Shown here: positions 41,838 to 63,840 of the stretch, one piece after another | How positions within the stretch are numbered: position 1 is the first letter of the stretch | Layout of the letters: every line of letters begins with the position of its first letter | Virus record (IMG/VR): IMGVR_UViG_3300020469_000008 | Coordinates: 138,055-202,054 of that record | Length of the DNA: 64,000 nucleotides | Strand: one strand, 5' to 3' | Source: a virus | Taxonomy: Duplodnaviria > Caudoviricetes | Notes under the pieces: generated by a model | What the model was told of the DNA's origin: nothing | What the model saw: only the letters and a program-made list of their open reading frames with translations | Databases searched by the model: none | Position numbers and translations under genes: made by a program

Positions 41838-41854
41838 TTATAAGAGAATCAAAA

Positions 41855-41883
41855 GTGTAACTCCTGGCAGTGCGCAATATAAT
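41855..41883 (+). promoter_or_regulatory. phage promoter GTGTAA-N17-TATAAT
   Basis: Repeated motif before RadA-like copy 1. Confidence 0.75.
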
Positions 41884-41917
41884 AAAAACACAACCTAACA
41901 AGCTAAGGAGCTAACTA

Positions 41918-42673
41918 ATGAAAATTAAGGTAAAGATTGAAGAAATACCGTTTGGAACTTGTATTCAAGATATTGAAGTACCATCTGTTCTAAAAAAGAG
42001 GGTGTCAACTGGGATTGGCTATTTCGATTGTGTTTTAGGTGGTGAAGGTTTCACACCGTCAATGGTGACACTGTTTACAGGAACACCTGGTGCTGGAAAA
42101 ACTACCATGATGTTAACTCTAGCAAACGCATTACAAGGACACGGTGCTCAAGTCGTATTTAATACAGCTGAAGAAAGCTTGTACCAGGTTAAGATGACTG
42201 CTAATCGTCTTCGTCTTCGTCATCCATTTTGTGTTGGTGGTGAGACAAGTGTTCCTGCTCTTTTAACAGGATGTGATAAAGTGCGTGAAGCAAACCCTGA
42301 CAGGCCTTTCTTCCTTATTGTGGATTCACTCCAGTGTATGAACGACGCGCACTTTAAAACGGGGCGCATTACTACAGCAACAGCTGAAAGAGCATTAGGC
42401 TTGTTAACAAGTTATGCTAAAGAACATGCAGTAAATGTTATCGTGATCGGACAAGTCACTAAAGATGGCAAAATGGCAGGTTCAAATAAACTTAAACATA
42501 TGGTTGACAGTCACATTCACCTCTCAGTTGAAGTTAAAGATGATGACTTAAGAGGCTGTCGTGTTTTAGAAACTCAAAAGAATAGATTCGGAGGCGCAGG
42601 CCACGTTATCTTTTTAAGACTTCGAAGAAATGGTTTTTCAGAAGTCGCGAGAATTAGTGACTCAGGTGTTTAA
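41918..42673 (+). CDS. radA: RadA/Sms-like RecA-fold ATPase (ATPase domain only), copy 1
   Basis: GTPGAGKTT, AEES, IVDSLQ, VIGQVTKDG, KNRFG; lacks Zn finger and Lon-like domain. Confidence 0.8.
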   Translation: MKIKVKIEEIPFGTCIQDIEVPSVLKKRVSTGIGYFDCVLGGEGFTPSMVTLFTGTPGAGKTTMMLTLANALQGHGAQVVFNTAEESLYQVKMTANRLRLRHPFCVGGETSVPALLTGCDKVREANPDRPFFLIVDSLQCMNDAHFKTGRITTATAERALGLLTSYAKEHAVNVIVIGQVTKDGKMAGSNKLKHMVDSHIHLSVEVKDDDLRGCRVLETQKNRFGGAGHVIFLRLRRNGFSEVARISDSGV

Positions 42674-42722: not shown

Positions 42723-42902
42723 ATGTTACCAAAATGGACAGCAACATATGTTAGAGATGATGACGATGAAAAAGAAAAAACAGTCGAAGTATATGCGGAA
42801 ACTATTTTTCAAGCTTGGTATAACGCTATGAGCATAATTCAAATATTGGAAAAAACAGAAGACTATTCAATAAAAAGTGTAAATCCTACCAAGGCAAGTT
42901 AG
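42723..42902 (+). CDS. hypothetical protein (59 aa, not in track)
   Basis: GGAGG SD; MLPKWTATYVRDDDDEKEK... Confidence 0.5.
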   Translation: MLPKWTATYVRDDDDEKEKTVEVYAETIFQAWYNAMSIIQILEKTEDYSIKSVNPTKAS

Positions 42903-42915
42903 GATTAATAGTTAG

Positions 42916-42989
42916 GCACCCGTAGCTCAGCTGGATAGAGCATCCGCCTTCTAAGCGGATGGTCACAGGTTCAAATCCTGTCGGGTGTA
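42916..42989 (+). tRNA. tRNA-Arg(TCT)
   Basis: Cloverleaf; anticodon arm TCCGC-CTTCTAA-GCGGA; T-loop GTTCAAATC; CCA not encoded. Confidence 0.95.
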
Positions 42990-42998
42990 CATTTAAGT

Positions 42999-43083
42999 AG
43001 TCGATACTTTGGGTTGGATTAATTTATCCTGTGTCCTCAGAGGTATAAGTATCGACTTTCCTTGGTTGGCCTCTGGGGACACA
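42999..43083 (+). ncRNA. candidate pseudoknotted RNA element
   Basis: Interleaved inverted repeats: 42999-43009/43047-43057 (11 bp) and 43030-43043/43070-43083 (14 bp, one G.U). Confidence 0.5.
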
Positions 43084-43104
43084 CTTAATTTTCTGAGGTG
43101 GAAG

Positions 43105-43416
43105 ATGAGATTAGTAGAAGAAAAAGAATACGACGAAATTATTGGTAATACAAGTAATTTGATTGTGCAACTATCTGCAGACTGGTGTGGTCCTTGTAGA
43201 GTGCTCACACCTATTTTAGAATCGGTTGCTAAAGAAAAAGGTATTGATGTGATTAAAGTTAATATAGATAACAACCTGTCAATTGTTGCACGACATGCAG
43301 TTAGAGGTATACCACGAATATTATTTTTTAAAGATGGAAATGTTGCTGCTGATCTCACAGGCAATCAAAAAAGAAATAAGCTAGAAGAAGTTTGCAGTCA
43401 AGTTTATGAATGTTAA
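43105..43416 (+). CDS. trxA: thioredoxin
   Basis: ADWCGPC, VRGIP; ATG 43105 after GAGGTGG. Confidence 0.9.
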   Translation: MRLVEEKEYDEIIGNTSNLIVQLSADWCGPCRVLTPILESVAKEKGIDVIKVNIDNNLSIVARHAVRGIPRILFFKDGNVAADLTGNQKRNKLEEVCSQVYEC

Positions 43417-53299: not shown

Positions 53300-53318
53300 T
53301 AAGCGCGCAGGACAAAAA

Positions 53319-53347
53319 GTGTAACATGACTTTCTGTATTATATACT
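53319..53347 (+). promoter_or_regulatory. phage promoter GTGTAA-N17-TATACT
   Basis: Repeated motif. Confidence 0.75.
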
Positions 53348-53371
53348 ATAAACAACCAACCAGGAGATACA

Positions 53372-53842
53372 ATGGAATACGCAGGCAAAAGAAGAAGAGC
53401 TATCTTAGACAAGGTAAAGGCACAATTGCGCGAAGAATCTGAAGCCCAACTTTTGGATGGGATGGACTTCAACAACTGGAATGAGGCATTCGACATGTTG
53501 AACACACAGTTCTGGAATGGTAGTTTACCAAAGATTCCAGTGACTACCGAAGCAACAAAGAAAGCACAGTACGGATGGTATGGATATAAAGGATACATAA
53601 AGTTAAGCGCTAACAAAGGACTGTCACCTCTCCAAATGTTAGGAGTTTTACTGCATGAGATGTGTCATCACTATGTTGAGGTAACATACAAACACGGGTA
53701 TTCAGCTGCAGCAGGTGGCAAGCGAGTCATCGGTCACGGAAAGGAATGGAAAGCTGAAATGAGACGCGTGGGATACCTAGGCAAGATTACTCGATATACT
53801 GGAAAAGAAAGATTCACAGGAGTGTCACGATGGCAACAGTAA
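53372..53842 (+). CDS. SprT-like zinc metalloprotease domain protein
   Basis: FDMLNTQFWNGSLP, VLLHEMCH, HGKEWKAEM. Confidence 0.8.
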   Translation: MEYAGKRRRAILDKVKAQLREESEAQLLDGMDFNNWNEAFDMLNTQFWNGSLPKIPVTTEATKKAQYGWYGYKGYIKLSANKGLSPLQMLGVLLHEMCHHYVEVTYKHGYSAAAGGKRVIGHGKEWKAEMRRVGYLGKITRYTGKERFTGVSRWQQ

Positions 53843-54048
53843 AGAAAGTCGAAGAAAAGCTAACACAACACAGTCGGACAGGTGCCAACACATATATGAT
53901 CCCTTCAAAGAATATGGATAATTGGTACAAGGATGAGTTGTTGTTTGTAAGGAAAGTAGAGGCAGGTTGCGCAGTCGTCTTTCGTTCAATGGATGGTAAA
54001 CTTTATTCTTTGAATGATAAGATGTTACTAAACTTTAAGTTGTTGTAA
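53830..54048 (+). CDS. hypothetical protein
   Basis: 72-aa ORF. Confidence 0.5.
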   Translation: MATVKKVEEKLTQHSRTGANTYMIPSKNMDNWYKDELLFVRKVEAGCAVVFRSMDGKLYSLNDKMLLNFKLL

Positions 54049-54049
54049 A

Positions 54050-54078
54050 GTGCAACATTGAAAAGTATACTATATAAT
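54050..54078 (+). promoter_or_regulatory. phage promoter GTGCAA-N17-TATAAT
   Basis: Repeated motif. Confidence 0.7.
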
Positions 54079-54107
54079 AACACAAACCAGACAAAAAAGG
54101 AGACATT

Positions 54108-54446
54108 ATGTCATTGTCAACATCAACAACACCATTCGTAAAACACTTCATAGTAGAGCCTGGTAACATGACTCGCTACGAGTTGCTCTATATCGTCTAT
54201 CCCGACAGTCAGTACGATGTACCTCACTGCGGCGTTACTTGGTTGCAGAGAGGAACCGGTGGTGAGACTTTCGTCTGGGTAAAAGGAAGTTCCATCTACA
54301 GTTCATATGTACTCGAAAAGTCAAACATAAATCGTCCGGACTTGGTCGCCATTCTCTGTTCAATCAAAAAACGATATCCTGACTCTATATCTGAGTTAGT
54401 TGGCTTTGAAGAATATGATGAAAACGGACTTTGGAGGGGTGCATAA
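54108..54446 (+). CDS. hypothetical protein
   Basis: SD AAGGAG after promoter. Confidence 0.6.
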   Translation: MSLSTSTTPFVKHFIVEPGNMTRYELLYIVYPDSQYDVPHCGVTWLQRGTGGETFVWVKGSSIYSSYVLEKSNINRPDLVAILCSIKKRYPDSISELVGFEEYDENGLWRGA

Positions 54447-55108
54447 TGCCAGTATCAAAAACAGTGACACTATATTCTTTTGAAGAACTAAACACGACAA
54501 TACAAGATAACATTATTAGTGCATATGTGCAGGACTTACCCGGGTGGTGGTCAGATGATGTTGAAGAACGAATTAGGAACGAGGCAAAGTCATTAGGGAT
54601 AAATAACTTTGACTTCTCTTGGAGCGGCTTCTGGTCACAAGGTGACGGGTTATCTTTCACCGGCCAAATCAACTTTAAGAACTGGTTGTTCATTCTCACA
54701 GAACGGTTATCTTCTAAACAGTTCTCAGATCTTTGTGGTAAAACACCACAAGAGATAGTCCAACTCAAAGAAGATAATAGAATAGAATGGGGTGGCTGTG
54801 TCATCGAACGATTCAATTACCAGTACTGTCACGAAAACACAGTGCAGGTATCAGAACCTGACTCTAAATTGGGATGGGATGAAAGAAGAGGTTACCCTAG
54901 TGACAATGAGATAATGAGCATCTTCGGTGAGAATGTACAAAGACTATTGCGAGAATGGAAGAATGAATTGTGCAACCGCTGGTATTCAGAATTGCAGAAC
55001 GCATACGAGTCTGTTACTGAGAGAGACAATATCGTCAGGGACATCAACTCAAAGGAGTTACTGTTTACTTCGAGTGGAACAGTTGTTGATGAGGGAGAAA
55101 TGGCTTAA
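54446..55108 (+). CDS. conserved phage/MGE hypothetical protein (SGFWSQGDG family)
   Basis: T.TLYSFEEL...FSWSGFWSQGDGLSF.G; TAATG coupling; function unverified. Confidence 0.55.
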   Translation: MPVSKTVTLYSFEELNTTIQDNIISAYVQDLPGWWSDDVEERIRNEAKSLGINNFDFSWSGFWSQGDGLSFTGQINFKNWLFILTERLSSKQFSDLCGKTPQEIVQLKEDNRIEWGGCVIERFNYQYCHENTVQVSEPDSKLGWDERRGYPSDNEIMSIFGENVQRLLREWKNELCNRWYSELQNAYESVTERDNIVRDINSKELLFTSSGTVVDEGEMA

Positions 55109-55168
55109 TAATCTTTTGTAAAAACGTAAGGTAACGAGATATATTATTACACACCAGGAGCAATACTA

Positions 55169-55339
55169 ATGGAAACCTACATCGTGTCAATACCGATCAC
55201 AACTGATATGGATTCATCACAACTTTTAGATATAATCAATTCTCAGATCTCTCAAATTTTAAGCGATGAAATTGAATCATATGGGTATGAAGTTGAAGTA
55301 GATGAAAACGAGGTTGCTGTAGAAAACGTGAATGAATAG
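55169..55339 (+). CDS. small acidic hypothetical protein (56 aa, not in track)
   Basis: SD AGGAG; METYIVSIPIT... Confidence 0.55.
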   Translation: METYIVSIPITTDMDSSQLLDIINSQISQILSDEIESYGYEVEVDENEVAVENVNE

Positions 55340-55344
55340 ATTTT

Positions 55345-55424
55345 GTCAACCGGTCACCACTCCGGCCCCTCTCACTATGTCCTTGTTGGGCGCGCGAAGT
55401 TTTCGACCGGTTGGCTTTTCTATT
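55345..55424 (+). terminator. large-loop hairpin + U-tract (terminator or structured RNA)
   Basis: GTCAACCGGTC (55345-55355) / GACCGGTTGGC (55405-55415) followed by TTTTCTATTT. Confidence 0.45.
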
Positions 55425-55430
55425 TGTACA

Positions 55431-55460
55431 TAATGTATCTTGCGCCCGCGTATACGCGGG
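55431..55460 (+). repeat. GC-rich direct repeat, copy 2, containing the palindrome CCCGCGTATACGCGGG
   Basis: 16-bp palindrome at 55445-55460. Confidence 0.85.
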
Positions 55461-55466
55461 GAGTAA

Positions 55467-55558
55467 TTGTAAAGAATTGGTGTAGAGATTAACGCACGAG
55501 GTGTAAACCGGGAAGTGGAGCGGGTAATCTCGAGGGTGGGTAACGGGATCCTTTACAA
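55467..55558 (+). ncRNA. candidate multibranch structured RNA / G-rich element
   Basis: TTGTAAAG/CTTTACAA outer stem, GAGATTA/TAATCTC inner stem, five GGG tracts. Confidence 0.4.
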
Positions 55559-55566
55559 GATATAGA

Positions 55567-55595
55567 GTGTAACAGCACATAAGCTGTTGTATACT
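55567..55595 (+). promoter_or_regulatory. phage promoter GTGTAA-N17-TATACT
   Basis: Repeated motif. Confidence 0.75.
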
Positions 55596-55629
55596 AAAAA
55601 CAACCATAAACCCAATAAAGGGAGATAAT

Positions 55630-55965
55630 ATGCGACTCACCATTTGCAAACATTGCAGCGACGCATTTGACAAAAACTCAAGACGTAAAAGAACAGTAGG
55701 GGGTTATATCGATGAGTGTCCTAGCTGTGTTGAAGAACTTGGGACGGAAACAAACGAGACAATCCGCGGGGTTATTAGTGGTGACGGTAAAATGGCGTGC
55801 ATTCAGATTCTAAAGTTTGATAGCAAGTCAGAAGCAGATCAGTACTGCAGCGCTTGGAATGCCAACAGCGGATGGAACAATCGACGTAGCGGTGGTCTTG
55901 ATGACGTGAAGTTCCAGAAGATCGGAGAAAACGCGGGTAATACAAACCACAAAGGAAAACTGTAA
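55630..55965 (+). CDS. hypothetical protein with two CxxC pairs
   Basis: CKHC ... CPSC; SD GGGAG. Confidence 0.6.
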   Translation: MRLTICKHCSDAFDKNSRRKRTVGGYIDECPSCVEELGTETNETIRGVISGDGKMACIQILKFDSKSEADQYCSAWNANSGWNNRRSGGLDDVKFQKIGENAGNTNHKGKL

Positions 55966-56015
55966 AAGTGCAACAGCACAAAACCAATAGTATACTAAAA
56001 CCACACAACAACCAA
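55965..56015 (+). repeat. 51-bp exact direct repeat (promoter + leader), also at 57652-57702
   Basis: AAAGTGCAACAGCACAAAACCAATAGTATACTAAAACCACACAACAACCAA. Confidence 0.85.
55968..55996 (+). promoter_or_regulatory. phage promoter GTGCAA-N17-TATACT
   Basis: Repeated motif. Confidence 0.75.
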
Positions 56016-56025
56016 TGGAGGTCAT

Positions 56026-56247
56026 ATGGCTACAAATATCTACAAAGTAATAACTTATGAGAGCGCGGTTCAAATGTTTATCGATCATGAACTGCCAGGT
56101 ATTCAAAATCAATATGAAGAAGACGGTGTTCCTGACAGACCGGCAAGGAACGAAGGGTGGCATAACTTTGTCAACTGGCTATGGGAAAACAAAGAGATTA
56201 GTGATTGGCAATCGGAAAACTGGTCAGTACCTGAAATATGCGGGTGA
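56026..56247 (+). CDS. hypothetical protein
   Basis: SD GGAGG. Confidence 0.6.
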   Translation: MATNIYKVITYESAVQMFIDHELPGIQNQYEEDGVPDRPARNEGWHNFVNWLWENKEISDWQSENWSVPEICG

Positions 56248-56257
56248 GGAGAAAAAC

Positions 56258-56539
56258 ATGACAACATTACCAAAGTATTCAAATGAACCAAACTTTGTCG
56301 GGTATCCACTGTGGTATATCATCGACGATCATAAAGCGCAATGTAATGAATGTGCTACAGTTTCAAAGTCAGAGGGCTTCACAACTTCAAAGCAGGTGAA
56401 CTGGGAAGATACAAACCTGTGGTGTGATGAGTGCAGTGAGAAGATAGAATCAGCATACGGAGAAGATCCAGATGAGAAGGAGCCTGATGATGACACTACT
56501 GAGGACTTCGATGACCCGTACATAAAAGCAAAAGAATAA
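56258..56539 (+). CDS. small Zn-finger-like phage protein
   Basis: GYPLWY...CNEC...VNWED..L.CDEC...IESAYG; ATG 56258 after GAGGAG. Confidence 0.6.
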   Translation: MTTLPKYSNEPNFVGYPLWYIIDDHKAQCNECATVSKSEGFTTSKQVNWEDTNLWCDECSEKIESAYGEDPDEKEPDDDTTEDFDDPYIKAKE

Positions 56540-56544
56540 ACTCC

Positions 56545-56671
56545 GTGGTTGGTGTTTAGCAATCTGTATACAAGGGCGCAAGGACGGCATAGGTCGACGA
56601 GGCAGCCGTATACAGATTGCGGAGAGAGAGCTGGTTACTCTCGGGAAAGGGTGGGCACATTCACCGACCAC
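56545..56671 (+). ncRNA. candidate three-way-junction structured RNA
   Basis: Outer stem 56545-54/56662-71; 13-bp stem 56559-71/56608-20; GAGAG/CTCTC hairpin 56626-42. Confidence 0.55.
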
Positions 56672-56675
56672 AAAA

Positions 56676-56704
56676 ATGTAACAACTACAATAGTGTAGTA
56701 TAAT
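56676..56704 (+). promoter_or_regulatory. phage promoter variant ATGTAA-N17-TATAAT
   Basis: Repeated motif variant. Confidence 0.65.
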
Positions 56705-56736
56705 AAAACCACAACCCCAACTACAAGGAAAATAAT

Positions 56737-56946
56737 ATGAATATGTACGCCAACATTATCAACCGGTTCTTTGATTACAAAGACCAAACCTACCAAATCA
56801 CTTCCGAAGTAGTTCAAGCTAACAGCCTCGCGGATGACTTTCACTCCTATCGTGTGTGTACAAACGTTAAGACAGGGAAAGTTGTCAAGTTCTTCTATGA
56901 AGAGTTCTGGAATGTGACAGCCCGAGGTTACACTGCAGAAGTGTAA
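56737..56946 (+). CDS. hypothetical protein
   Basis: SD AAGGA; stop codon is the TAA of the next GTGTAA box. Confidence 0.6.
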   Translation: MNMYANIINRFFDYKDQTYQITSEVVQANSLADDFHSYRVCTNVKTGKVVKFFYEEFWNVTARGYTAEV

Positions 56947-56969
56947 CTCTGGTAAATGTAGTGTATACT
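56941..56969 (+). promoter_or_regulatory. phage promoter GTGTAA-N17-TATACT
   Basis: Repeated motif. Confidence 0.75.
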
Positions 56970-57003
56970 AAAGCCGTAAACCTCCCAACTAAAGGAAACA
57001 ATA

Positions 57004-57378
57004 ATGATCTTAACTAATAACAATGAAAACATTGGAAGGTCTGATGAATACAAACAAGTGTGTGTCTGGCCCGGTATTATTATCGCAGATAATCAGATCG
57101 AAAACTTTGAAAACTACTTCAGTAAAGAAGGTTTTAGAGTTCAGTTCTTAGAATCAATACAGACAAAACCTGATCGAGACGAAAGTGGAGATGACGTAAG
57201 CGAATCCGGCGGCAGAATTGATGCAATCTTTGCAGTTCATAACGATGATGTAATGAAGTTCTCTATCCCACGCTTAGGTATGGGTATCAGGTGGATTGAG
57301 GACGTTTTAGATAATGAAGCGCGTAAAACAGAACACAGTATCTATCCAGATCGTGTCAAAGAATATAGAACTTGGTAG
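57004..57378 (+). CDS. hypothetical protein
   Basis: SD AAAGGA. Confidence 0.65.
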   Translation: MILTNNNENIGRSDEYKQVCVWPGIIIADNQIENFENYFSKEGFRVQFLESIQTKPDRDESGDDVSESGGRIDAIFAVHNDDVMKFSIPRLGMGIRWIEDVLDNEARKTEHSIYPDRVKEYRTW

Positions 57379-57387
57379 GAGAAAACT

Positions 57388-57648
57388 ATGTACAATCGAA
57401 TAGACTTGAGCAACTCAGCAATTGATGACAAACCGCTTTACTTGGCAATTTGGCCTGATAGTGATGAAGTACCAGAAGTCTGGACTTACAAGAAAGCAGA
57501 TGAAGCTTTCGGCGAGATACTAGAGGTGATGGAAATGATCAGGCATTTGGATTACTACGAAGAACTATACCACGAGGAAAGCAACTTCGTCTTAATGCGA
57601 ATCCCATCTTGGCTTGATGTGCCAAAGATTAAGTACCAAGTGCAGTGA
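57388..57648 (+). CDS. hypothetical protein
   Basis: SD AGGAG. Confidence 0.6.
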   Translation: MYNRIDLSNSAIDDKPLYLAIWPDSDEVPEVWTYKKADEAFGEILEVMEMIRHLDYYEELYHEESNFVLMRIPSWLDVPKIKYQVQ

Positions 57649-57654
57649 GGTAAA

Positions 57655-57683
57655 GTGCAACAGCACAAAACCAATAGTATACT
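57655..57683 (+). promoter_or_regulatory. phage promoter GTGCAA-N17-TATACT
   Basis: Repeated motif, identical to the copy at 55968. Confidence 0.75.
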
Positions 57684-57721
57684 AAAACCACACAACAACC
57701 AACCAACTCTAAGGAGACTAA

Positions 57722-58474
57722 ATGAAACTAAATGTTAAAATTGAAGAGATACCGTTCGGAACAAACATTCAAGATGTTGAAGTGCCAGATGTACTCAAAA
57801 CCAAAGTCCCATCAGGCCTAGGCTACTTTGATTATGCTCTTGGTGGTAAAGGGTTCACACCATCCCTTTGCGGCTTGTTTACTGGAACTCCAGGCGCCGG
57901 CAAAACCACTATGATGTTGACTCTGGCTAATGCCCTCCAAGGTCACGGAGCTCAGGTGGTATTCAATACTGCAGAGGAGTCACTATATCAAGTCAAAATG
58001 TCAGCCGACCGTTTGAGGCTGAGACACTCATTCATGTTAGGTGGCGAGTCTAATGTGCCAACACTACTCGCTGGATGCGATAAGGTTCGAAAGGCAAATC
58101 CTGATAAGCCATTCTTCCTGATTGTGGACTCACTCCAATGTATGGATGATGGGCACTTTAACTCAGGCCGTATTACAACTGCGACTGCCGAAAGAGCACT
58201 AGCATTGTTGACTTCATATGCAAAGGAAAATGCTTGTAATGTGCTAGTCATCGGACAAGTCAATAAAGACGGCAAAATGAGCGGCTCAAATAAGTTGAAG
58301 CATATGGTGGATATGCACATTCACTTAAGTGTTGAAGACAAGGACGAGGACCTCATGGGTTGCCGAATCTTAAACACACAAAAGAACCGTTTTGGTGGGG
58401 CAGGTCATGTAGTATTCCTCCGACTCAAAAAGAACGGCTTCAGTGAAGTTGCCCGCATTGGTGCTGATGACTGA
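57722..58474 (+). CDS. radA: RadA/Sms-like RecA-fold ATPase, copy 2
   Basis: Paralog of 41918-42673; GTPGAGKTT, IVDSLQ, KNRFG. Confidence 0.8.
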   Translation: MKLNVKIEEIPFGTNIQDVEVPDVLKTKVPSGLGYFDYALGGKGFTPSLCGLFTGTPGAGKTTMMLTLANALQGHGAQVVFNTAEESLYQVKMSADRLRLRHSFMLGGESNVPTLLAGCDKVRKANPDKPFFLIVDSLQCMDDGHFNSGRITTATAERALALLTSYAKENACNVLVIGQVNKDGKMSGSNKLKHMVDMHIHLSVEDKDEDLMGCRILNTQKNRFGGAGHVVFLRLKKNGFSEVARIGADD

Positions 58475-58488
58475 TTGATGGGGAGACT

Positions 58489-58518
58489 CACACCCTGGAA
58501 ACGGGGTGTGCAGTTTTT
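58489..58518 (+). terminator. intrinsic terminator
   Basis: CACACCC-tggaaacg-GGGTGTG then CAGTTTTT. Confidence 0.6.
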
Positions 58519-58527
58519 ACACTAAAA

Positions 58528-58555
58528 GTGTAACTCTGCAAGCATAGTGTATACT
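58528..58555 (+). promoter_or_regulatory. phage promoter GTGTAA-N16-TATACT
   Basis: Repeated motif with a 16-bp spacer. Confidence 0.65.
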
Positions 58556-58585
58556 AATAACACAACCAATAACGGAGGAGCTAAA

Positions 58586-59194
58586 ATGGCTTTTACTAAA
58601 GACACAATCTCAAATCTACTAAACCAACACCCGTTGCTTATTGACAAAGCTATTGAGATGATTGGTGATAATCAAACAGCAGATGAGCTCGGCTCTCGAC
58701 ACACCAAGTATGAAAACGGTATCGGGTTCACTGCTTCCTATGGGACCATTGGTACTGTCCTCTATCAGTTTGTGACAGGCCGTGACTGCCGGCGACCAGG
58801 TCATCCAGTTCGATGGAAGCCAAAGTCACTTATCACTGACGGTGATGTTTTGGATAGAACTCGTGATATGCGTCGATTCAAATACCGTAATCCGCACTAT
58901 GCGCAATCAACTCCTCGCGAAATTGCTAAAATGATCGCAGTGCTTCACTGGCGGCAGTTAGGTGGTTTAATGGATCGCAGCAATTGGGTACAACCACCAG
59001 CAACTGCGACAACACAGCAGCCACAAACAATGGTGGTGCGATACACTCGCATTGTAAAAGAGACACAACGTGCAATCTTACTTGAGAAGGTTGATACTGA
59101 AGGTATTGCTTGGGAAAGGTGGATACCCAAGTCAATGATAGTCACTGACGGACGCCTTATTCAAGGCCAGTTTACAATTAAGCGACCAGCTTAA
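58586..59194 (+). CDS. hypothetical phage protein
   Basis: ATG 58586 after GGAGGAG; QTADE...T...NGIGF motif. Confidence 0.6.
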   Translation: MAFTKDTISNLLNQHPLLIDKAIEMIGDNQTADELGSRHTKYENGIGFTASYGTIGTVLYQFVTGRDCRRPGHPVRWKPKSLITDGDVLDRTRDMRRFKYRNPHYAQSTPREIAKMIAVLHWRQLGGLMDRSNWVQPPATATTQQPQTMVVRYTRIVKETQRAILLEKVDTEGIAWERWIPKSMIVTDGRLIQGQFTIKRPA

Positions 59195-59357
59195 GAGTTT
59201 ACAAATGGTATTGTACACAGTATTCATACTGGCTCTATTCTTAGGGTCAGTTATTGTCCCTCTGCAGATCGCTGCAGTAGAGTTCGAATCTGAGAGGGAG
59301 AGATGTGACCCATATACAAAGGTATGGGAAGACACATCAGTTATGCAGAGGTAGATT

Positions 59358-59612
59358 ATGAGTGAGTGGTTTTTCCTACAACAAATGAAAAAAAGACAAA
59401 GTGATGGCGAAGATAAAGAAGATAAGCTAAGTGCAATCCGAATTCAAATCAGAGATACACTTCGCGAAGAGAGCCTTCTTAAGAACAAGCTGGATACGAT
59501 ACCCGCAAAGGATAGATTTGGTCACCCATTGAGGATTGAGTGGATCGCAGCCCGATCAAAGTATTGGGATTTGATTGCTAAAATGAGAGATATAGAACGC
59601 GGTAAAGTGTAA
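59358..59612 (+). CDS. hypothetical protein
   Basis: SD GAGG; ends GKV* at the promoter box. Confidence 0.55.
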   Translation: MSEWFFLQQMKKRQSDGEDKEDKLSAIRIQIRDTLREESLLKNKLDTIPAKDRFGHPLRIEWIAARSKYWDLIAKMRDIERGKV

Positions 59613-59635
59613 CCGGTGAATAACTTTGGTATACT
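59607..59635 (+). promoter_or_regulatory. phage promoter GTGTAA-N17-TATACT
   Basis: Repeated motif. Confidence 0.75.
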
Positions 59636-59659
59636 ATAAACACAACCAAAGGAGATAAT

Positions 59660-59794
59660 ATGTCTAAAAAGAAGAAGAATACAAAACGAAACTGGCTTGC
59701 GGTGCACGCTTTTCAAAGAAGCGGGGCTGGACACCACGGAGATAAGAAGAAGGCAAAAAGCAAGAAGGCTTGCAGAGGAAAGGTGAGAGTATGA
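59660..59794 (+). CDS. small basic protein (44 aa, not in track)
   Basis: SD AAAGGAG; RNWLAVHAFQRSGAGHHGDKKK...ACRGK. Confidence 0.6.
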   Translation: MSKKKKNTKRNWLAVHAFQRSGAGHHGDKKKAKSKKACRGKVRV

Positions 59795-59979
59795 CAGTGA
59801 AAATAGGCCAGGTATATACCCGCGAAGGAAGAAGATATCAGATTATGCAGATAAAATCATCACTTGTTATTGCCCACTCTTATGGTGAAGATCACGGTGT
59901 TGACACTATTATTTATGTTAATAAAGAAAGCGGTAAAGTGATAGCGACAAAAGCTCGATATGGAAGGAAACCAAAGTGA
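59791..59979 (+). CDS. hypothetical protein
   Basis: ATGA overlap; MTVKIGQVY. Confidence 0.55.
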   Translation: MTVKIGQVYTREGRRYQIMQIKSSLVIAHSYGEDHGVDTIIYVNKESGKVIATKARYGRKPK

Positions 59980-60058
59980 TAGAGCTTGTTTTAGCTTCAA
60001 CCGTATGGGCTTTGATGTTCTTGCTAGCACTTTTTGTCTACAAAAATAATAAGTAAAA

Positions 60059-60087
60059 GTGTAACTCTGACAAGCATAGTGTATACT
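60059..60087 (+). promoter_or_regulatory. phage promoter GTGTAA-N17-TATACT
   Basis: Repeated motif. Confidence 0.75.
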
Positions 60088-60125
60088 AATAACACAACCA
60101 ATAACAATCAACCAAAGGAAATAAT

Positions 60126-60599
60126 ATGACAAAATGTAAAGTAACAGTTCATGATAGAGTTTACTTAGATGTACCAGGCAAGAGAATGGTGATCGAGCTG
60201 CTCGATGGATATGATGCGGATGGAGACTATATAGATGCTTGGCGACTCATCGACCTCAACACAGGTGAAGAGTTTTACCGAGATGTGAACCTGCATGATG
60301 TGATTCACCAGGCTTCGCTAATGACTTGCGAGGCACAGGACGATCACTATGATGAGTACATTGTAGGGCGAACTCCAGAATCAGACTATAGAGTTTTTCG
60401 AGCCTTGCCTATGGCTGTTAGATTAGAATGGATCACATCACACGCCGGTGACTTGGAACATGACTTCAAGCTAGACGGTGACACGCGTGACCCGATTGCA
60501 GTCGCAACACAAGAGCTCAATGACATATACAATGAAAAGCCGTGTTTCTACTTAGATCGCCAGGCTGGCAAATGGGAGCTTGATTGCGACCGTTGCTAA
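60126..60599 (+). CDS. hypothetical protein
   Basis: SD AAAGGA. Confidence 0.65.
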   Translation: MTKCKVTVHDRVYLDVPGKRMVIELLDGYDADGDYIDAWRLIDLNTGEEFYRDVNLHDVIHQASLMTCEAQDDHYDEYIVGRTPESDYRVFRALPMAVRLEWITSHAGDLEHDFKLDGDTRDPIAVATQELNDIYNEKPCFYLDRQAGKWELDCDRC

Positions 60600-60601
60600 A
60601 A

Positions 60602-60630
60602 GTGCAACCCTGGCAAGCATAGTATATACT
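60602..60630 (+). promoter_or_regulatory. phage promoter GTGCAA-N17-TATACT
   Basis: Repeated motif. Confidence 0.75.
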
Positions 60631-60657
60631 AAATAAGAACTAACCAAAGGAGATAAA

Positions 60658-60900
60658 ATGGCTAATCAAACAACTGTACCACATTTAGTACTTGAAAGGT
60701 TTCCGCACGTTGCCCGGGCGATCGAAATACCTGAAGACATAAAAGGCAATCTAGAACTTGAACACGAGTTCCTCTTCCCATTGATTATGCGCGATTATCG
60801 ATCTGAGTGGTCTATCATCTGCGATGAAGTAGACAAAGCTATCGAAGATGGTTCTGCTTACTTCGACAGTGCAAGTGGTATCATTACACAGGTACATTAG
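60658..60900 (+). CDS. hypothetical protein
   Basis: SD AAAGGAG. Confidence 0.6.
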   Translation: MANQTTVPHLVLERFPHVARAIEIPEDIKGNLELEHEFLFPLIMRDYRSEWSIICDEVDKAIEDGSAYFDSASGIITQVH

Positions 60901-61020
60901 TTATGAATGATATGAAATATATAGTTTTTGGAGCAATACTCGTAATCTATCTAGACTGGAGCCGACTCTTCGGAGACATACAAAGAATAATAACATTAGT
61001 AACAACAGAGGTACAAACAC

Positions 61021-61275
61021 ATGAACAAACGAATGACTAATGAGCAACTAACACATATTGATGAACTGGTTGAGAACTACAAACAAATGATTGAAGTTTA
61101 TCCTCGATCTAATATCTTAAGAGATGCGCGAATTCACCACACATCAATGGCAGCTGGAGGAGACGGAGGTCCAATTGGATACGACGATGAATCGACCATT
61201 CGTGGGTACTACTATTCGAATTATCCTGATGTGTTCTTCCAGCGAATCTGTGAAAGAATGCGATGGGAGTGGTAG
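61021..61275 (+). CDS. hypothetical protein
   Basis: SD GAGG. Confidence 0.6.
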   Translation: MNKRMTNEQLTHIDELVENYKQMIEVYPRSNILRDARIHHTSMAAGGDGGPIGYDDESTIRGYYYSNYPDVFFQRICERMRWEW

Positions 61276-61373
61276 GTGCACATCATCGAACTAGGACACA
61301 CAATCGGTTACGCGATACTGATCTTCGGTTTTGCGACCATAATCTTCCTGACGATTGCAGAAGACGACTAAAA

Positions 61374-61402
61374 GTGTAACCCTGGCAAGCATAGTGTATA
61401 CT
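61374..61402 (+). promoter_or_regulatory. phage promoter GTGTAA-N17-TATACT
   Basis: Repeated motif. Confidence 0.75.
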
Positions 61403-61427
61403 ATATACACAACCAATAGGAGCTAAT

Positions 61428-61730
61428 ATGAGTACAGGGTTCAAAGTAAAGACACACATCGGAGTTATGGATAGCGAACCAGAGATCGCATTGCGGTTTT
61501 GGGGAGGATCCAAACATAAACAAACAGTTCGATTTGCATTTCCGAAGCAGGTAATGTTTCATCTAAAAGATGTCGTAGTCTGGGGTGATGATGGTTCTAG
61601 AACAACACTTGGTGCACTATTTGACGAGTGTCATACATGTGACTTCCTAAATGCTGAGAGAGCGGATGACTTCTTGGCTTGGGGATCTAAACACCCACAA
61701 CCCGCAGATACGGAAAGGTTCTTAGTTTAA
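61428..61730 (+). CDS. hypothetical protein
   Basis: SD AGGAG. Confidence 0.6.
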   Translation: MSTGFKVKTHIGVMDSEPEIALRFWGGSKHKQTVRFAFPKQVMFHLKDVVVWGDDGSRTTLGALFDECHTCDFLNAERADDFLAWGSKHPQPADTERFLV

Positions 61731-61736
61731 CCAAAA

Positions 61737-61765
61737 GTGTAACCAATACAAACCTATAGTATACT
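61737..61765 (+). promoter_or_regulatory. phage promoter GTGTAA-N17-TATACT
   Basis: Repeated motif. Confidence 0.75.
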
Positions 61766-61793
61766 AATAAAGAACCCCCAACCAAAGGAAAAT

Positions 61794-61961
61794 ATGTTAG
61801 TCAAAGTAAAAGAAGAACTTAAAAATAGTGAAGCTCGTGGACAGTGGGCTGGCCGAACAGGATTAGTTGTAAAGGTACTCAAGTCTTGTAAGGCCGTCCG
61901 GTTTTGTTCCGGTGAAACAGTCAAGTTTTATCACCAACATCTTGAAACCATCAACCAATAG
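61794..61961 (+). CDS. small KOW/SH3-like protein (55 aa, not in track)
   Basis: LVKVK...GRTGLVVKV...HLETI; SD AAAGGA. Confidence 0.55.
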   Translation: MLVKVKEELKNSEARGQWAGRTGLVVKVLKSCKAVRFCSGETVKFYHQHLETINQ

Positions 61962-61970
61962 GAAAATAAT

Positions 61971-62306
61971 ATGACAGTTTTTGATTACGCACCCACAACA
62001 GATTGGAGAGACAAGAACATGACTTCTAATCTCGATCACATACTAGATGAAGAGGCACTGACAATCGTCAAAAGCATTGACGTCGATGAACTAGAACGCG
62101 CATTTGGCGATCGCCCGCAAGACTACCATCGTGGTGATTACGAACACGATGTGAAGGGATACACACTACCTTACTGGTACTTCAAATCAATCAATGATGA
62201 AGTAGTAGGTATCGGTTTCCGCTACGGTATCCCAAGAGTCGTTGGAAAGAATGTCACACCTGAAAGATTGGCCCGGTTTGTAAAGCTGGTGGCACAAAAA
62301 GTGTAA
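61971..62306 (+). CDS. hypothetical protein
   Basis: Ends QKV* at the promoter box. Confidence 0.6.
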   Translation: MTVFDYAPTTDWRDKNMTSNLDHILDEEALTIVKSIDVDELERAFGDRPQDYHRGDYEHDVKGYTLPYWYFKSINDEVVGIGFRYGIPRVVGKNVTPERLARFVKLVAQKV

Positions 62307-62329
62307 CTGCTCCCAAAGTGTAGTATGAT
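62301..62329 (+). promoter_or_regulatory. phage promoter GTGTAA-N17-TATGAT
   Basis: Repeated motif. Confidence 0.7.
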
Positions 62330-62356
62330 AATAAAGAACCAACCAAAGGAGATAAT

Positions 62357-62650
62357 ATGACAGAGAGAAAGTTTTTGACCACCGCGAAGACAGAAGCAGA
62401 TGTAAGAAAGATTGCCGACTGGTACGGCTGGCAGACTGAGGAGGATAACGAAGGGCAGCTGATTATCTACACCGATATCCCCGAAGGTGCACCCCAAGTG
62501 GCACAGGAAGCTGCTGCCATCTACAACTGGGATTATGATAGTGATAACTTAGGTGCGATCCTGCTGTACACTGGGGTTTACTCAGATGAACAGATCCGCC
62601 GAGATGAAAAGAACAGTCTTTACCCAGATAAGTGGGATCCCTGTAACTAA
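62357..62650 (+). CDS. hypothetical protein with internal duplication (DNEGQLIIYT / DNLGAILLYT)
   Basis: SD AAAGGAG. Confidence 0.6.
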   Translation: MTERKFLTTAKTEADVRKIADWYGWQTEEDNEGQLIIYTDIPEGAPQVAQEAAAIYNWDYDSDNLGAILLYTGVYSDEQIRRDEKNSLYPDKWDPCN

Positions 62651-62658
62651 GAACATAT

Positions 62659-62763
62659 GCGGTCTGCATAACCCAGTTTGCCGACTGGGTGGGTGCACAC
62701 TCTCAGAATAGAGACGGCAATCTCTGAGTTGAGAACGCTGGGGTTCGATTCCTCAGGTCCGCA
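62659..62763 (+). ncRNA. tRNA-like structured RNA with complementary (kissing) hairpin loops
   Basis: Acceptor-like stem GCGGTCT/GGTCCGC + A; T-arm TGGGG-TTCGATT-CCTCA; hairpin loops TTGCCG (62678-83) and CGGCAA (62715-20). Confidence 0.65.
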
Positions 62764-62781
62764 GCCTCTTTGCCACCAAAA

Positions 62782-62810
62782 GTGCAACATAACCAAAAGC
62801 ACTATATACT
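62782..62810 (+). promoter_or_regulatory. phage promoter GTGCAA-N17-TATACT
   Basis: Repeated motif. Confidence 0.75.
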
Positions 62811-62835
62811 AATAACACCAACCAAAGGAGACAAT

Positions 62836-63027
62836 ATGAATCATGAAACAGGATACAAAGTCAAAGTATCTTTGAGAAACGGTACACATATTATTGGTGT
62901 AGTTGATTGCTACAAAAGAGTCACTGAGGACTTTCACACACGATTGGACTTATGTGTTGAGTACCAAGACTCAAAAGGAGACACTATGTATATGTGGGTT
63001 CCTGATTACCGCACAACAAAAGTGTAA
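62836..63027 (+). CDS. hypothetical protein
   Basis: ATG 62836 after AAAGGAG; ends TKV* at the promoter box. Confidence 0.55.
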   Translation: MNHETGYKVKVSLRNGTHIIGVVDCYKRVTEDFHTRLDLCVEYQDSKGDTMYMWVPDYRTTKV

Positions 63028-63050
63028 CTAGACAAACTACCAAGTATACT
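63022..63050 (+). promoter_or_regulatory. phage promoter GTGTAA-N17-TATACT
   Basis: Repeated motif. Confidence 0.75.
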
Positions 63051-63086
63051 ATATACACAACCAATAATACTAACCAAGGAAAAACA

Positions 63087-63332
63087 ATGCAAAACGTACA
63101 AATCGAAATGAAAAACATCAAATGGCTCCAAGCAGTTGCAATCCCTGACTGCGACTTGGAAACACCACCAACAGAACTTCTTTTTGAAATAACCTTTTTT
63201 GATGGTGACTGCGAAACTGCTGAAGCTATTGATGAAGCTATAGCCGATCATCTTGAAAGCCGGTTTGGTTTTCGTCCTGTGAAATGGGACTTATGGATGT
63301 TTGATGACACATGTGAAAACGTGTGTGCATAG
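63087..63332 (+). CDS. hypothetical protein
   Basis: SD AAGGA. Confidence 0.6.
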   Translation: MQNVQIEMKNIKWLQAVAIPDCDLETPPTELLFEITFFDGDCETAEAIDEAIADHLESRFGFRPVKWDLWMFDDTCENVCA

Positions 63333-63341
63333 GAGGAATAT

Positions 63342-63470
63342 ATGAATACAATCATGACAGTTATTACAGGTATCGGTGCGATTGGAATGCTTTTAGTTAT
63401 GTGTTCCATTCCAGCTTTGATAGCCGGCGGTATCGTTGCTAATCACGGCCAGAAGAATGAAGACAAATAG
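63342..63470 (+). CDS. small membrane protein (42 aa, not in track)
   Basis: SD AGGAGG; single TM. Confidence 0.5.
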   Translation: MNTIMTVITGIGAIGMLLVMCSIPALIAGGIVANHGQKNEDK

Positions 63471-63498
63471 TGCAACATAACCAAATGCGCTATATACT
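63470..63498 (+). promoter_or_regulatory. phage promoter GTGCAA-N17-TATACT
   Basis: Repeated motif; overlaps the upstream TAG. Confidence 0.75.
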
Positions 63499-63529
63499 AT
63501 ATACATAACCAATCAACCAAGGAAACATT

Positions 63530-63775
63530 ATGACGCTAGCACAACAATACGACAACAACATAGAATCGATTGCCGATCGCTTCCGTCAATCAGATGCAGT
63601 AGATCAAATCCTCTACGACATTAAGCTACTGCGAAAAAGCATAAACTTAGCAATCAATCAAGAAGTTGTAGAGGACCTGATTGAAGAAGTCGAGGAATAT
63701 GTCCACTACGATGAATCGCTGGAATATATCTTAAGACAAATACCCGTTGAGGTCAAAGCTTTACTAGCTGGATAG
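63530..63775 (+). CDS. hypothetical protein
   Basis: SD AAGGA. Confidence 0.6.
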   Translation: MTLAQQYDNNIESIADRFRQSDAVDQILYDIKLLRKSINLAINQEVVEDLIEEVEEYVHYDESLEYILRQIPVEVKALLAG

Positions 63776-63780
63776 TAAAA

Positions 63781-63809
63781 GTGCAACATAACCAAACGCG
63801 CTATATACT
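63781..63809 (+). promoter_or_regulatory. phage promoter GTGCAA-N17-TATACT
   Basis: Repeated motif. Confidence 0.75.
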
Positions 63810-63840
63810 ATATACACAACCAATAACCAAGGAAAATAAT

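What the first reader, a model, noticed from the sequence alone, without database searches (positions are those of the whole stretch)
42999..43083. Long-stem H-type pseudoknot between tRNA-Arg and thioredoxin
Seen: stem 1 AGTCGATACTT/AAGTATCGACT (11 bp, perfect) is interleaved with stem 2 TGTGTCCTCAGAGG/CCTCTGGGGACACA (14 bp, one G.U). Loops are 20, 3 and 12 nt, and loop 1 holds a small GGAT/ATCC hairpin. It starts 10 nt after the tRNA and ends ~12 nt before the trxA SD. Two such long interleaved complementarities in 85 nt are unlikely by chance. Inference: an undescribed RNA element (tRNA-trailer processing, exonuclease block protecting the downstream mRNA, switch or ribozyme).
Basis: partly seen in the sequence, partly recalled or inferred. 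Interest (0 to 1): 0.7.

Follow-up and report, generated by a model that had tools for sequence, protein, structure and literature searches.

The report
Phage pseudoknot RNA with anti-leader loop
The two interleaved stems are real and belong to an undescribed, conserved pseudoknotted RNA of large marine phages, whose most conserved loop is the exact antisense of the ribosome-binding leader shared by a set of the phage's own genes, so it most likely switches those genes off by base pairing rather than processing the tRNA.

Summary
Stem 1 (42999-43009/43047-43057) and stem 2 (43030-43043/43070-43083) form the strongest interleaved helix pair in the whole 202-kb phage record and beat 24 genome shuffles.

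The element is conserved upstream of thioredoxin in 18 distinct marine contig sequences. Stem 1 is paired in 100% of cells, with double changes at 5 of 11 pairs. Stem 2 has double changes at 12 of 14 pairs. Wobble pairs fit only the + strand RNA. No Rfam family matches.

It does not depend on the tRNA. It occurs without one, and a tRNA-thioredoxin junction exists without it. In more distant relatives it sits directly after a KaiC/RecA-like ATPase gene.

The new point is loop 3 (UUUCCUUGGUUGG). It is the antisense of the CA-rich leader plus Shine-Dalgarno carried behind a 15-copy promoter motif in this window. Across lineages, loop and leader change together (AACCAAGG, CACCAAGG, GACCAAGG, AGCCAAGG, CCUGGGGAG).

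Best reading: a pseudoknot, usually followed by a U-run, at the end of the ATPase transcription unit that presents an anti-leader/anti-SD loop. This resembles icaR 5'-3' UTR pairing or a 3'-derived sRNA. Expression and effect are untested.

The parts
41852..41883 (+). Promoter-like motif AAAGTGTAAC (41852-41861) and TATAAT (41878-41883) in front of the ATPase gene. It is the only copy between 41852 and 53316.
   Evidence: The pattern has 15 matches in the window, all on the + strand, against 0.46 expected. Sequence read.
41884..41917 (+). CA-rich leader of the ATPase gene (ACACAACCUAACAAGCUAAGGAG; SD AAGGAG at 41905-41910). Its complementarity to loop 3 is split (CAACC ... AAGGAG).
   Evidence: duplex -14.0 kcal/mol. 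Close relative L156 has a contiguous 12-nt complement, CAACCAAGGAAA.
41918..42673 (+). KaiC/RecA-superfamily ATPase gene (251 aa). In distant relatives the element lies directly after it.
   Evidence: Pfam PF06745 E 3.3e-12, PF03796. 41 related loci.
42723..42902 (+). 59-aa ORF of unknown function, syntenic in close relatives.
   Evidence: no Pfam match.
42916..42990 (+). tRNA-Arg (anticodon TCT).
   Evidence: ARAGORN; Rfam tRNA 72.4 bits.
42999..43009 (+). Stem 1, 5' arm.
   Evidence: 100% paired in 18 sequences, 5 of 11 pairs with double changes.
43010..43029 (+). Loop 1. It has the conserved UGGGUU in close relatives and a variable mini-hairpin (43016-19/43026-29).
   Evidence: hairpin about 90% paired. 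It is replaced by another hairpin in L154, absent in L035 and longer in distant lineages.
43030..43043 (+). Stem 2, 5' arm.
   Evidence: 12 of 14 pairs with double changes.
43044..43046 (+). Loop 2 (UAU).
43047..43057 (+). Stem 1, 3' arm.
43058..43069 (+). Loop 3 (UUCCUUGGUUGG), the most conserved part (CUUGGUU invariant). It is antisense to the leader plus Shine-Dalgarno CCAACCAAGGAA(A).
43070..43083 (+). Stem 2, 3' arm.
43084..43094 (+). U-rich tract (CUUAAUUUUCU) after stem 2, terminator-like.
   Evidence: A run of at least 3 U within 12 nt in 17 of 18 close sequences and in L035, L039, L017, L020, L022, L002. Not called by the consensus terminator scan, because the loop is 26 nt.
43095..43416 (+). 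SD (GAGGTGG, 43095-43101) and thioredoxin gene (ATG 43105; 103 aa).
   Evidence: Pfam PF00085 E 1.3e-21; about 60 close relatives, all 103 aa.
63072..63082 (+). Candidate target: leader AACCAAGGAAA, an 11-nt perfect complement of loop 3, 4 nt before an ATG.
   Evidence: (-19.0 kcal/mol).
63515..63525 (+). Candidate target: leader AACCAAGGAAA.
   Evidence: -18.7 kcal/mol.
63825..63835 (+). Candidate target: leader AACCAAGGAAA.
53316..63860 (+). Cluster of 14 further units: AAAGTGYAAC promoter motif, then TATACT, then a CA-rich leader AACCAA(A)GGAG, then a small gene. This is the presumed regulon of the anti-leader loop.
   Evidence: loop 3 duplex at or below -14 kcal/mol for 12 of all 15 units.

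Best explanation
The element is a + strand RNA that folds into a long-stem H-type pseudoknot. Stem 1 is 10-21 bp and stem 2 is 10-15 bp, and loop 1 usually carries a small variable hairpin. It lies at the end of the transcription unit that starts at the AAAGTGTAAC/TATAAT promoter-like motif in front of the KaiC/RecA-like ATPase gene. In this phage a 59-aa ORF and tRNA-Arg have come to lie between the ATPase gene and the element.

Stem 2 plus the U-rich tract behaves as a probably leaky intrinsic terminator or 3'-end structure. The pseudoknot holds loop 3 single-stranded. Loop 3 is antisense to the CA-rich leader plus Shine-Dalgarno of the ATPase gene and of the other genes driven by the same promoter class.

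Pairing of loop 3 with these leaders would mask the ribosome-binding site. It could happen in cis on the unprocessed transcript, or in trans after the element is released as a stable 3' fragment (here by tRNA processing). The effect would be to limit or shut off translation of this gene class.

Shown here: the fold, its conservation, covariation in both stems, the strand, and the loop-leader complementarity with its co-variation across lineages. Inferred: transcription, termination, pairing in the cell, and the direction of the effect (repression versus stabilisation).
For: 1. Both stems are real. This is the best interleaved pair in 202 kb and beats 24 shuffles.
2. Conservation: 18 distinct sequences upstream of trx. 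95.8% of cells are paired, against 39-45% when partners are slid. S1 is 100% paired with 5 of 11 double-change pairs, and S1 was not part of the model used to align. S2 has 12 of 14 double-change pairs.
3. Strand: many G.U and U.G pairs, which would be A.C mismatches on the other strand.
4. Divergent members keep the topology and the loops with unrelated stem sequences: L002, L010, L015, L016, L017, L020, L022, L035, L039. There is one copy per genome.
5. The loop 3 complement recurs as a leader. AAAGTGYAAC occurs 15 times on the + strand (0.46 expected), each followed by AACCAA(A)GGAG and an ATG. The loop 3 duplex is -10 to -19.6 kcal/mol. The real 3' half of loop 3 beats all 14 permutations and 60 random hexamers (G000). 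L150 has 3 leaders with a 13-nt perfect match.
6. Co-variation across lineages, loop versus the ATPase gene's own leader about 800 nt upstream: L010 UUCCUUGGUGAG/CUCACCAAGGAA (12 nt), L016 (11), L020 UUCCUUGGCUA/UAGCCAAGGAA (11), L022 (11), L013 (10, presented in a plain hairpin), L017 (9), L032 CUCCCCAGG/CCUGGGGAG (9), L156 (12). For L010, L013, L016, L020, L022 and L032 (six of the seven tested there; L156 was not in that test), no control window in the same locus reaches that length; for L017, 4.7% of control windows do. Cognate pairs beat shuffled pairings: p = 0.00015 by energy and 0.001 by match length.
7. A U-run follows S2 in most lineages.
Against: - There is no expression evidence. 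The two RNA libraries that hold parts of the region have no contig over the element.
- In this window the ATPase gene's own leader is only split-complementary to loop 3 (5 nt contiguous), so a cis role here is weak.
- In G001 the enrichment of loop 3 targets over random hexamers is not significant.
- Loop 3 has about the minimum length needed to cross an 11-bp stem, so it may not be free to pair while stem 1 is formed.
- Stem 2 has a 26-nt loop, and in the window the U-run is interrupted. The consensus terminator scan does not call it. Two lineages (L010, L015) lack a U-run.
- The number of independent co-variation events is small (about 4-5), and the permutation test ignores phylogeny.
- trx lies 12 nt downstream with no room for a promoter, so it must be read through.
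Confidence: 0.55

Rival explanations
1. It is a 5'-terminal protective structure for the thioredoxin mRNA. After the tRNA is cut out, the downstream RNA begins with a monophosphate. A stable pseudoknot at its very 5' end would block RNase E or RNase J entry. This is one of the first reader's ideas.
For: The element starts 9 nt after the tRNA and ends 12 nt before the trx SD. It stays with trx in two deep clades and in L134, where the upstream gene differs.
Against: It does not explain the conserved loop 3 or its co-variation with leaders. In L010, L016, L017, L020, L022, L035 and L039 the downstream genes are unrelated to trx. The L139-L144 clade joins tRNA-Arg to trx without it.
Confidence: 0.15
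2. It is only an intrinsic terminator. The extra pairing (stem 1) and the loop sequence would have no function of their own.
For: A GC-rich stem 2 is followed by a U-run in most lineages. It sits at the end of the ATPase unit.
Against: Terminator loops are not normally conserved. Stem 1 is 100% paired with compensatory changes, and loop 3 is invariant in its core. There is only one copy per genome, so it is not the phage's general terminator type. The 26-nt loop is atypical.
Confidence: 0.08
3. The loop 3 sequence is conserved at the DNA level, as an inverted copy of a protein-binding site that also lies in the leaders. An example would be an operator of a phage regulator. The loop-leader match would then reflect a shared protein, not RNA pairing.
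For: Co-variation of all copies of a site with a regulator's specificity would also give lineage-specific matches.
Against: The site always lies in the single-stranded loop of a covarying RNA scaffold: the pseudoknot, or a hairpin in L013. It is always in antisense orientation on the transcribed strand. In the leaders it contains the SD, 4-9 nt from the ATG. Variants L015 and L149 (UCUUGG) keep pairing only through G.U.
Confidence: 0.08
4. It is a riboswitch or a protein-bound operator. The conserved loops would form a pocket or a binding surface, and stem 2 plus the U-run would be the expression platform for the downstream gene.
For: Conserved loops, covarying stems and a U-run plus SD directly after it.
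Against: The stems are very stable (-14 and -27 kcal/mol), which leaves little room for ligand-dependent switching. The downstream genes are not consistent. The loop 3 sequence changes between lineages in step with the leaders, which a ligand pocket would not do. No Rfam match.
Confidence: 0.07
5. It is a self-cleaving ribozyme that trims the tRNA 3' trailer (HDV-like or theta type).
For: Interleaved helices next to a phage tRNA recall the theta ribozymes (PMC10879173).
Against: Only 3 nt lie between the S2 5' arm and the S1 3' arm, where P3/L3 must be. There is no P1.1, P4 or J4/2. The element starts 9 nt from the tRNA and also occurs without a tRNA. No HDV-like Rfam model matches even at E <= 10.
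Confidence: 0.02

Closest known systems
icaR mRNA 5'-3' UTR pairing in Staphylococcus aureus (PMC3868564); also the hbs 5'/3'-UTR interaction in B. subtilis (PMC5737220)
   Same: A sequence near the 3' end of a bacterial-type mRNA is complementary to the Shine-Dalgarno region of the same mRNA.
   Different: Here the anti-SD is presented in a loop of a covarying pseudoknot (or hairpin) next to a terminator-like stem. It is in a phage. It matches a whole class of leaders. In this window it is separated from the gene by a tRNA. No experiment exists.
3'-end-derived regulatory RNAs, that is 3'UTR-derived sRNAs and the tRNA 3' external transcribed spacer of glyW-cysT-leuZ (from my own knowledge; the spacer is mentioned in papers found)
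   Same: A functional RNA that shares the terminator of the upstream gene or tRNA precursor and is released by processing. It fits both contexts seen here, after an ORF and after a tRNA.
   Different: Those RNAs use linear seeds and Hfq. Here the seed sits in a pseudoknot loop, and the targets are the phage's own genes.
c4 antisense RNA of phages P1/P7 (Rfam C4 family; from my own knowledge)
   Same: A phage RNA whose unpaired loops pair with a leader that includes the ribosome-binding site of phage genes. It is processed from a longer transcript.
   Different: No sequence or structure similarity and no Rfam hit. c4 is not a pseudoknot.
HDV-like theta ribozymes next to phage tRNAs (PMC10879173)
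   Same: Interleaved helices placed right after a phage tRNA.
   Different: P3/L3, P1.1 and J4/2 with the catalytic C are absent. The distance to the tRNA is 9 nt rather than within 5 nt. The element also occurs without a tRNA.
T4 gene 32 leader pseudoknot, and the T4 RegA/RegB shut-off of early mRNAs (from my own knowledge)
   Same: An H-type pseudoknot in a phage translational control region, and a dedicated shut-off of a class of early messages at their ribosome-binding sites.
   Different: T4 uses proteins that recognise the RNA. Here the recognising agent would itself be RNA. The stems are far longer than in the gene 32 pseudoknot.

Membership tests
Any Rfam 15 family | Covariance-model match | tested here: not met
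   cmscan over 42500-44000 at E <= 10 gives only tRNAs and chance hits. Gathering scans of L002, L010 and L015 give only tRNAs.
H-type pseudoknot | Two helices, with the 3' arm of the first lying between the arms of the second | tested here: met
   the topology is kept in all members.
H-type pseudoknot | Both helices supported by compensatory change | tested here: met
   S1 5 of 11 and S2 12 of 14 pairs with double changes. 95.8% of cells paired against 39-45% in slid controls.
H-type pseudoknot | Both helices form at the same time (loops long enough; probing) | not testable with these tools
   Loops of 20, 3 and 12 nt are about sufficient for 14- and 11-bp stems by rule of thumb. SHAPE or a 3D model is needed.
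HDV-like / theta ribozyme | P3 hairpin with L3 between the P2 5' arm and the P1 3' arm, P1.1, and J4/2 with the catalytic C | tested here: not met
   Only UAU (43044-43046) lies there. Motif definition from PMC10879173.
HDV-like / theta ribozyme | Cleavage site within 5 nt of a tRNA end | tested here: not met
   S1 starts 9 nt after the tRNA. The element is present without a tRNA in L134 and after the ATPase gene in other lineages.
Intrinsic (Rho-independent) terminator | GC-rich stem followed at once by a U-run | tested here: inconclusive
   The stem is met. A U-run is present in most lineages, but it is interrupted in the window and absent in L157, L010 and L015.
Intrinsic (Rho-independent) terminator | Short loop (3-8 nt) | tested here: not met
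   The stem 2 loop is 26 nt; the scan does not call it.
3'-to-5' UTR anti-SD pairing (icaR type) | A 3' region complementary to the SD region of the same gene | tested here: met
   9-12-nt perfect complements in L010, L013, L016, L017, L020, L022, L032 and L156. In the window it is only split.
3'-to-5' UTR anti-SD pairing (icaR type) | Co-variation of the two partners | tested here: met
   Five sequence variants change together. Permutation p = 0.00015 and 0.001.
3'-to-5' UTR anti-SD pairing (icaR type) | Both partners on one transcript; effect on translation or decay | not testable with these tools
   No usable RNA data.
Riboswitch | Constant association with genes of one pathway, and an invariant pocket | tested here: not met
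   Downstream genes differ: trx, a membrane protein, a Lys-rich protein. Loop 3 varies with the leaders.
Type III antitoxin RNA (ToxI-like) | Tandem repeats of the pseudoknot unit before a toxin gene | tested here: not met
   Single copy per genome. The downstream gene is thioredoxin.

The most novel reading that the evidence does not exclude
The pseudoknot is released as a stable small RNA, here by tRNA processing. It would act in trans as a phage-encoded master repressor of a whole promoter/leader class (15 units in this window), masking their shared leader and Shine-Dalgarno. That would make it an RNA counterpart of the T4 RegA/RegB early shut-off, with a pseudoknot as the scaffold that presents the seed.
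Probability: 0.3. Interest if true: 0.85.

Novelty: new variant of a known kind. Interest (0 to 1): 0.74.

Why it matters
Three reasons:
- It would add a new RNA family, absent from Rfam, to large uncultured marine phages. The pseudoknot has unusually strong comparative support.
- It would be the first case I know of in which a phage marks a class of its own messages with a common leader and carries, at the end of one of those messages, a structured RNA that is antisense to that leader. That makes temporal shut-off of phage genes by RNA, not protein, directly testable with simple reporter constructs.
- It shows that 3'-to-5' anti-SD pairing, known from a few bacterial mRNAs, can be tracked by co-variation across lineages. 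Such an approach could find more cases.

Tried and rejected
- **Public phage genomes:** only the tRNAs match.
- **Exact-pattern scans of IMG/VR** for stem 2 and for conserved S1/L1 and S1/L3 strings: no hits. A loop-anchored pattern found only L035's record plus leader repeats.
- **trx relatives in IMG/VR:** at most 39% identity, no help.
- **RNA libraries X15 and X16:** contigs over part of trx and of the upstream ORF only, none over the element. This gives no evidence either way on expression.
- **Coding readings:**
  - The in-frame TTG extension of trx is broken by stops in 16 of 19 sequences.
  - The 13-codon ORF seen in relatives has no ATG in the window.
- **G-quadruplex from the two GGUUGG:** the second GG is AA or GA in some members.
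- **Loop 1 as a second seed:** its complement is not enriched in leaders.
- **Pairing of loop 1 with the 3' flank:** not general, by reading.
- **Cis pairing of loop 3 with the trx SD:** only 4 nt.
- **Target enrichment in G001:** not significant.
- **Second interleaved pair at 55344-55447:** a terminator-like hairpin whose loop does not stand out against leaders.
- **A general terminator type:** rejected, since there is one copy per genome.

Full report
**The observation**

- Stem 1 is 42999-43009 with 43047-57, 11 bp and perfect.
- Stem 2 is 43030-43043 with 43070-83, 14 bp with one G.U, and can extend by T43044.G43069.
- The loops are 20, 3 and 12 nt, with a GGAT/ATCC mini-hairpin in loop 1.
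- tRNA-Arg(TCT) ends at 42989/42990.
- The thioredoxin gene starts at ATG 43105, behind GAGGTGG (Pfam).

I listed every contiguous local helix in the whole record and scored all interleaved pairs. This pair is the best on either strand (-41.3 kcal/mol; next best -32.2). 24 dinucleotide-preserving shuffles of the genome reached at best -24 to -35. Stem 2 alone is the strongest local helix of the genome. Stem 1 alone is ordinary. The nested fold alone has z = -3.6.

**Conservation and covariation**

Public phage genomes and IMG/VR gave no close relative of the element. The thioredoxin, however, has about 60 close relatives (52-86% identity, all 103 aa) in marine assemblies. Their contigs and one pattern scan of JGI metagenomes gave 18 distinct versions of the element.

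On the MAFFT alignment, 92.5% of cells pair. On an alignment fitted only to stem 2 and the mini-hairpin, 95.8% pair, against 39-45% when partners are slid by 1-3 columns.
- Stem 1 was not in the model. It is 100% paired, with double changes at 5 of 11 pairs.
- Stem 2 has double changes at 12 of 14 pairs.
- The many G.U and U.G pairs would be A.C mismatches on the other strand, so the + strand RNA is the folded molecule.
- The frame upstream of trx is closed by stops in 16 of 19 sequences, so the element is not coding.
- No Rfam family matches at E <= 10.

**What it goes with**

The tRNA is not the partner.
- In L134-L138 the element follows a 308-aa ORF, with no tRNA.
- In L139-L144 tRNA-Arg is joined to trx without the element.

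A covariance model and a helix scan around the loop 3 core then found diverged members. Their stem sequences are unrelated, but the topology and the loop 3 core are the same: L002, L010, L015, L016, L017, L020, L022, L035 and L039.
- All but L002 lie 30-80 nt after the stop of a 250-aa KaiC/RecA-like ATPase gene. That gene is the homologue of window 41918-42673.
- In L002 the element lies after tRNA-Met and before a diverged thioredoxin.
- Downstream genes otherwise differ.
- There is one copy per genome.
- A U-run follows stem 2 in 17 of 18 close sequences and in most distant ones.

**The loop**

Loop 3 is the most conserved part; CUUGGUU is invariant. In the window, its complement CCAACCAAGGAAA turns up as the leader of small + strand genes at 59.6-63.8 kb.

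These genes share a promoter-like motif, AAAGTGYAAC. It occurs 15 times in the window, all on the + strand, against 0.46 expected. Fourteen copies lie at 53316-63778 and one at 41852, in front of the ATPase gene. Each is followed by TATACT or TATAAT, then a CA-rich leader AACCAA(A)GGAG, then an ATG.
- Predicted loop 3 duplexes are -10 to -19.6 kcal/mol, and at or below -14 for 12 of the 15.
- Keeping the anti-SD half and permuting or randomising the other half of loop 3 never gave as many strong targets in this genome. In G001 the effect is not significant.

**Co-variation in trans**

The loop and the leaders change together between lineages.
- G000, G001, G007 and G010 have AACCAAGG leaders and UUGGUU loops.
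- G006 and G011 have CUCACCAAGG leaders and UUGGUGAG loops.
- G008, G013 and G015 have GACCAAGG leaders and UUGGUC loops.
- G012 has UAGCCAAGG leaders and a UUGGCUA loop.

The leader of the ATPase gene itself, about 800 nt upstream of the element, carries the match.

| Locus | Perfect complement (nt) |
|---|---|
| L010 | 12 |
| L016, L020, L022 | 11 each |
| L013 | 10 |
| L017 | 9 |
| L032 | 9 |
| L156 | 12 |

- In L013 the anti-leader sits in a plain hairpin loop.
- In L032 the pair is a quite different sequence, CUCCCCAGG with CCUGGGGAG.
- L156 is a close relative of the window phage.
- For L010, L013, L016, L020, L022 and L032 no other 250-nt window of the same locus reaches that length; for L017, 4.7% of such windows do, and L156 was not in that test.
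- Over 12 lineages, cognate loop-leader pairs beat shuffled pairings, with p = 0.00015 by energy and 0.001 by match length.
- The test ignores relatedness. I count about four to five independent changes.
- Variants with UCUUGG (L015, L149) keep the pairing only through G.U.

**Reading**

The simplest account is an RNA at the end of the ATPase transcription unit. Its pseudoknot, or a hairpin in one lineage, presents an anti-leader/anti-SD loop next to a terminator-like stem.

In lineages where the element follows the ATPase gene directly, it can pair in cis with the 5' end of its own message. This is what happens in icaR (PMC3868564) and hbs (PMC5737220).

In the window phage a 59-aa ORF and tRNA-Arg lie in between. 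The ATPase leader itself is only split-complementary (CAACC ... AAGGAG), while other leaders of the class match over 11 nt. A role in trans, after release by tRNA processing, therefore looks more likely here.

I infer repression of translation, because the Shine-Dalgarno is inside the duplex. Stabilisation is the alternative.

**Weak points**
- Nothing shows that the RNA is made. The RNA libraries that hold neighbouring parts have no contig over it.
- Loop 3 may be stretched across stem 1.
- The terminator is atypical, and the consensus scan does not call it.
- trx must be expressed by read-through.

**Rivals and membership**
- A 5' protective cap for the trx mRNA, a plain terminator, a DNA-level inverted site, a riboswitch or operator, and an HDV-like ribozyme were each weighed.
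- None explains the loop-leader co-variation.
- The ribozyme fails on the missing P3/L3.

**Novelty**

I found no description of this element in Rfam or in the paper library. I rate it a new RNA family that probably works like known 3'-to-5' anti-SD pairing or 3'-derived sRNAs. What is new is the pseudoknot scaffold, the phage setting and a possible whole-regulon reach.

Noticed in passing
window 41852; 53316-63787: Fifteen + strand copies of AAAGTGYAAC (0.46 expected). Each is followed by TATACT or TATAAT, a CA-rich leader with AACCAA repeats and a small gene. This looks like a class of host-RNA-polymerase (early?) promoters at the end of the record.
   Followed up: partly
window 55344-55447: Second-best interleaved helix pair of the genome. 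An 11-bp stem CAACCGGTC.../...GACCGGTTG lies right after a stop codon, has a 47-nt loop containing CCUUGUUGG, and is followed by GCUUUUCUAUUU. The loop does not stand out as antisense to the leaders.
   Followed up: partly
window 13771-14107: Phage-encoded tmRNA with tag peptide ANNNNFYDVALAA.
   Followed up: no
window 43587-43740: tRNA-Gly(GCC) and tRNA-Met-like (CAT) genes just after the 58-aa ORF that overlaps the end of trx.
   Followed up: no
L002 4360-4550 (also L003): Between tRNA-Arg and tRNA-Met lie a long perfect hairpin GATATAACCG.../...CGGTTATATC with a T-run, then about 110 nt of further structured-looking non-coding sequence. No Rfam match.
   Followed up: partly
L010 4533-5092; L015 4486-4847: 360-560 nt of G+C-rich non-coding sequence between tRNA-Arg and tRNA-Lys, conserved between the two phages. 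No Rfam family at gathering score.
   Followed up: partly
L198 (G010) 6800-11150: An 11.8-kb phage fragment with 12 genes. Their leaders are (AAACC)n repeats ending in CCAACCAAGGAAA, the exact complement of the window's loop 3. No pseudoknot lies in the fragment.
   Followed up: partly
L145 and L164 996-1325: An Endonuclease_7 (PF02945) ORF is inserted between the small ORF and tRNA-Arg in one clade. L123, L128, L163 and L171 have different sequence upstream of, or in the 5' half of, tRNA-Arg. This suggests recombination at the tRNA.
   Followed up: no
L013 about 3770-3820 (G015 about 29755): In this lineage the anti-leader UUUCCUUGGUCGG sits in the loop of a plain 10-bp hairpin GGCGGGUGGG/CCCACCCGCC instead of a pseudoknot.
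   Followed up: partly
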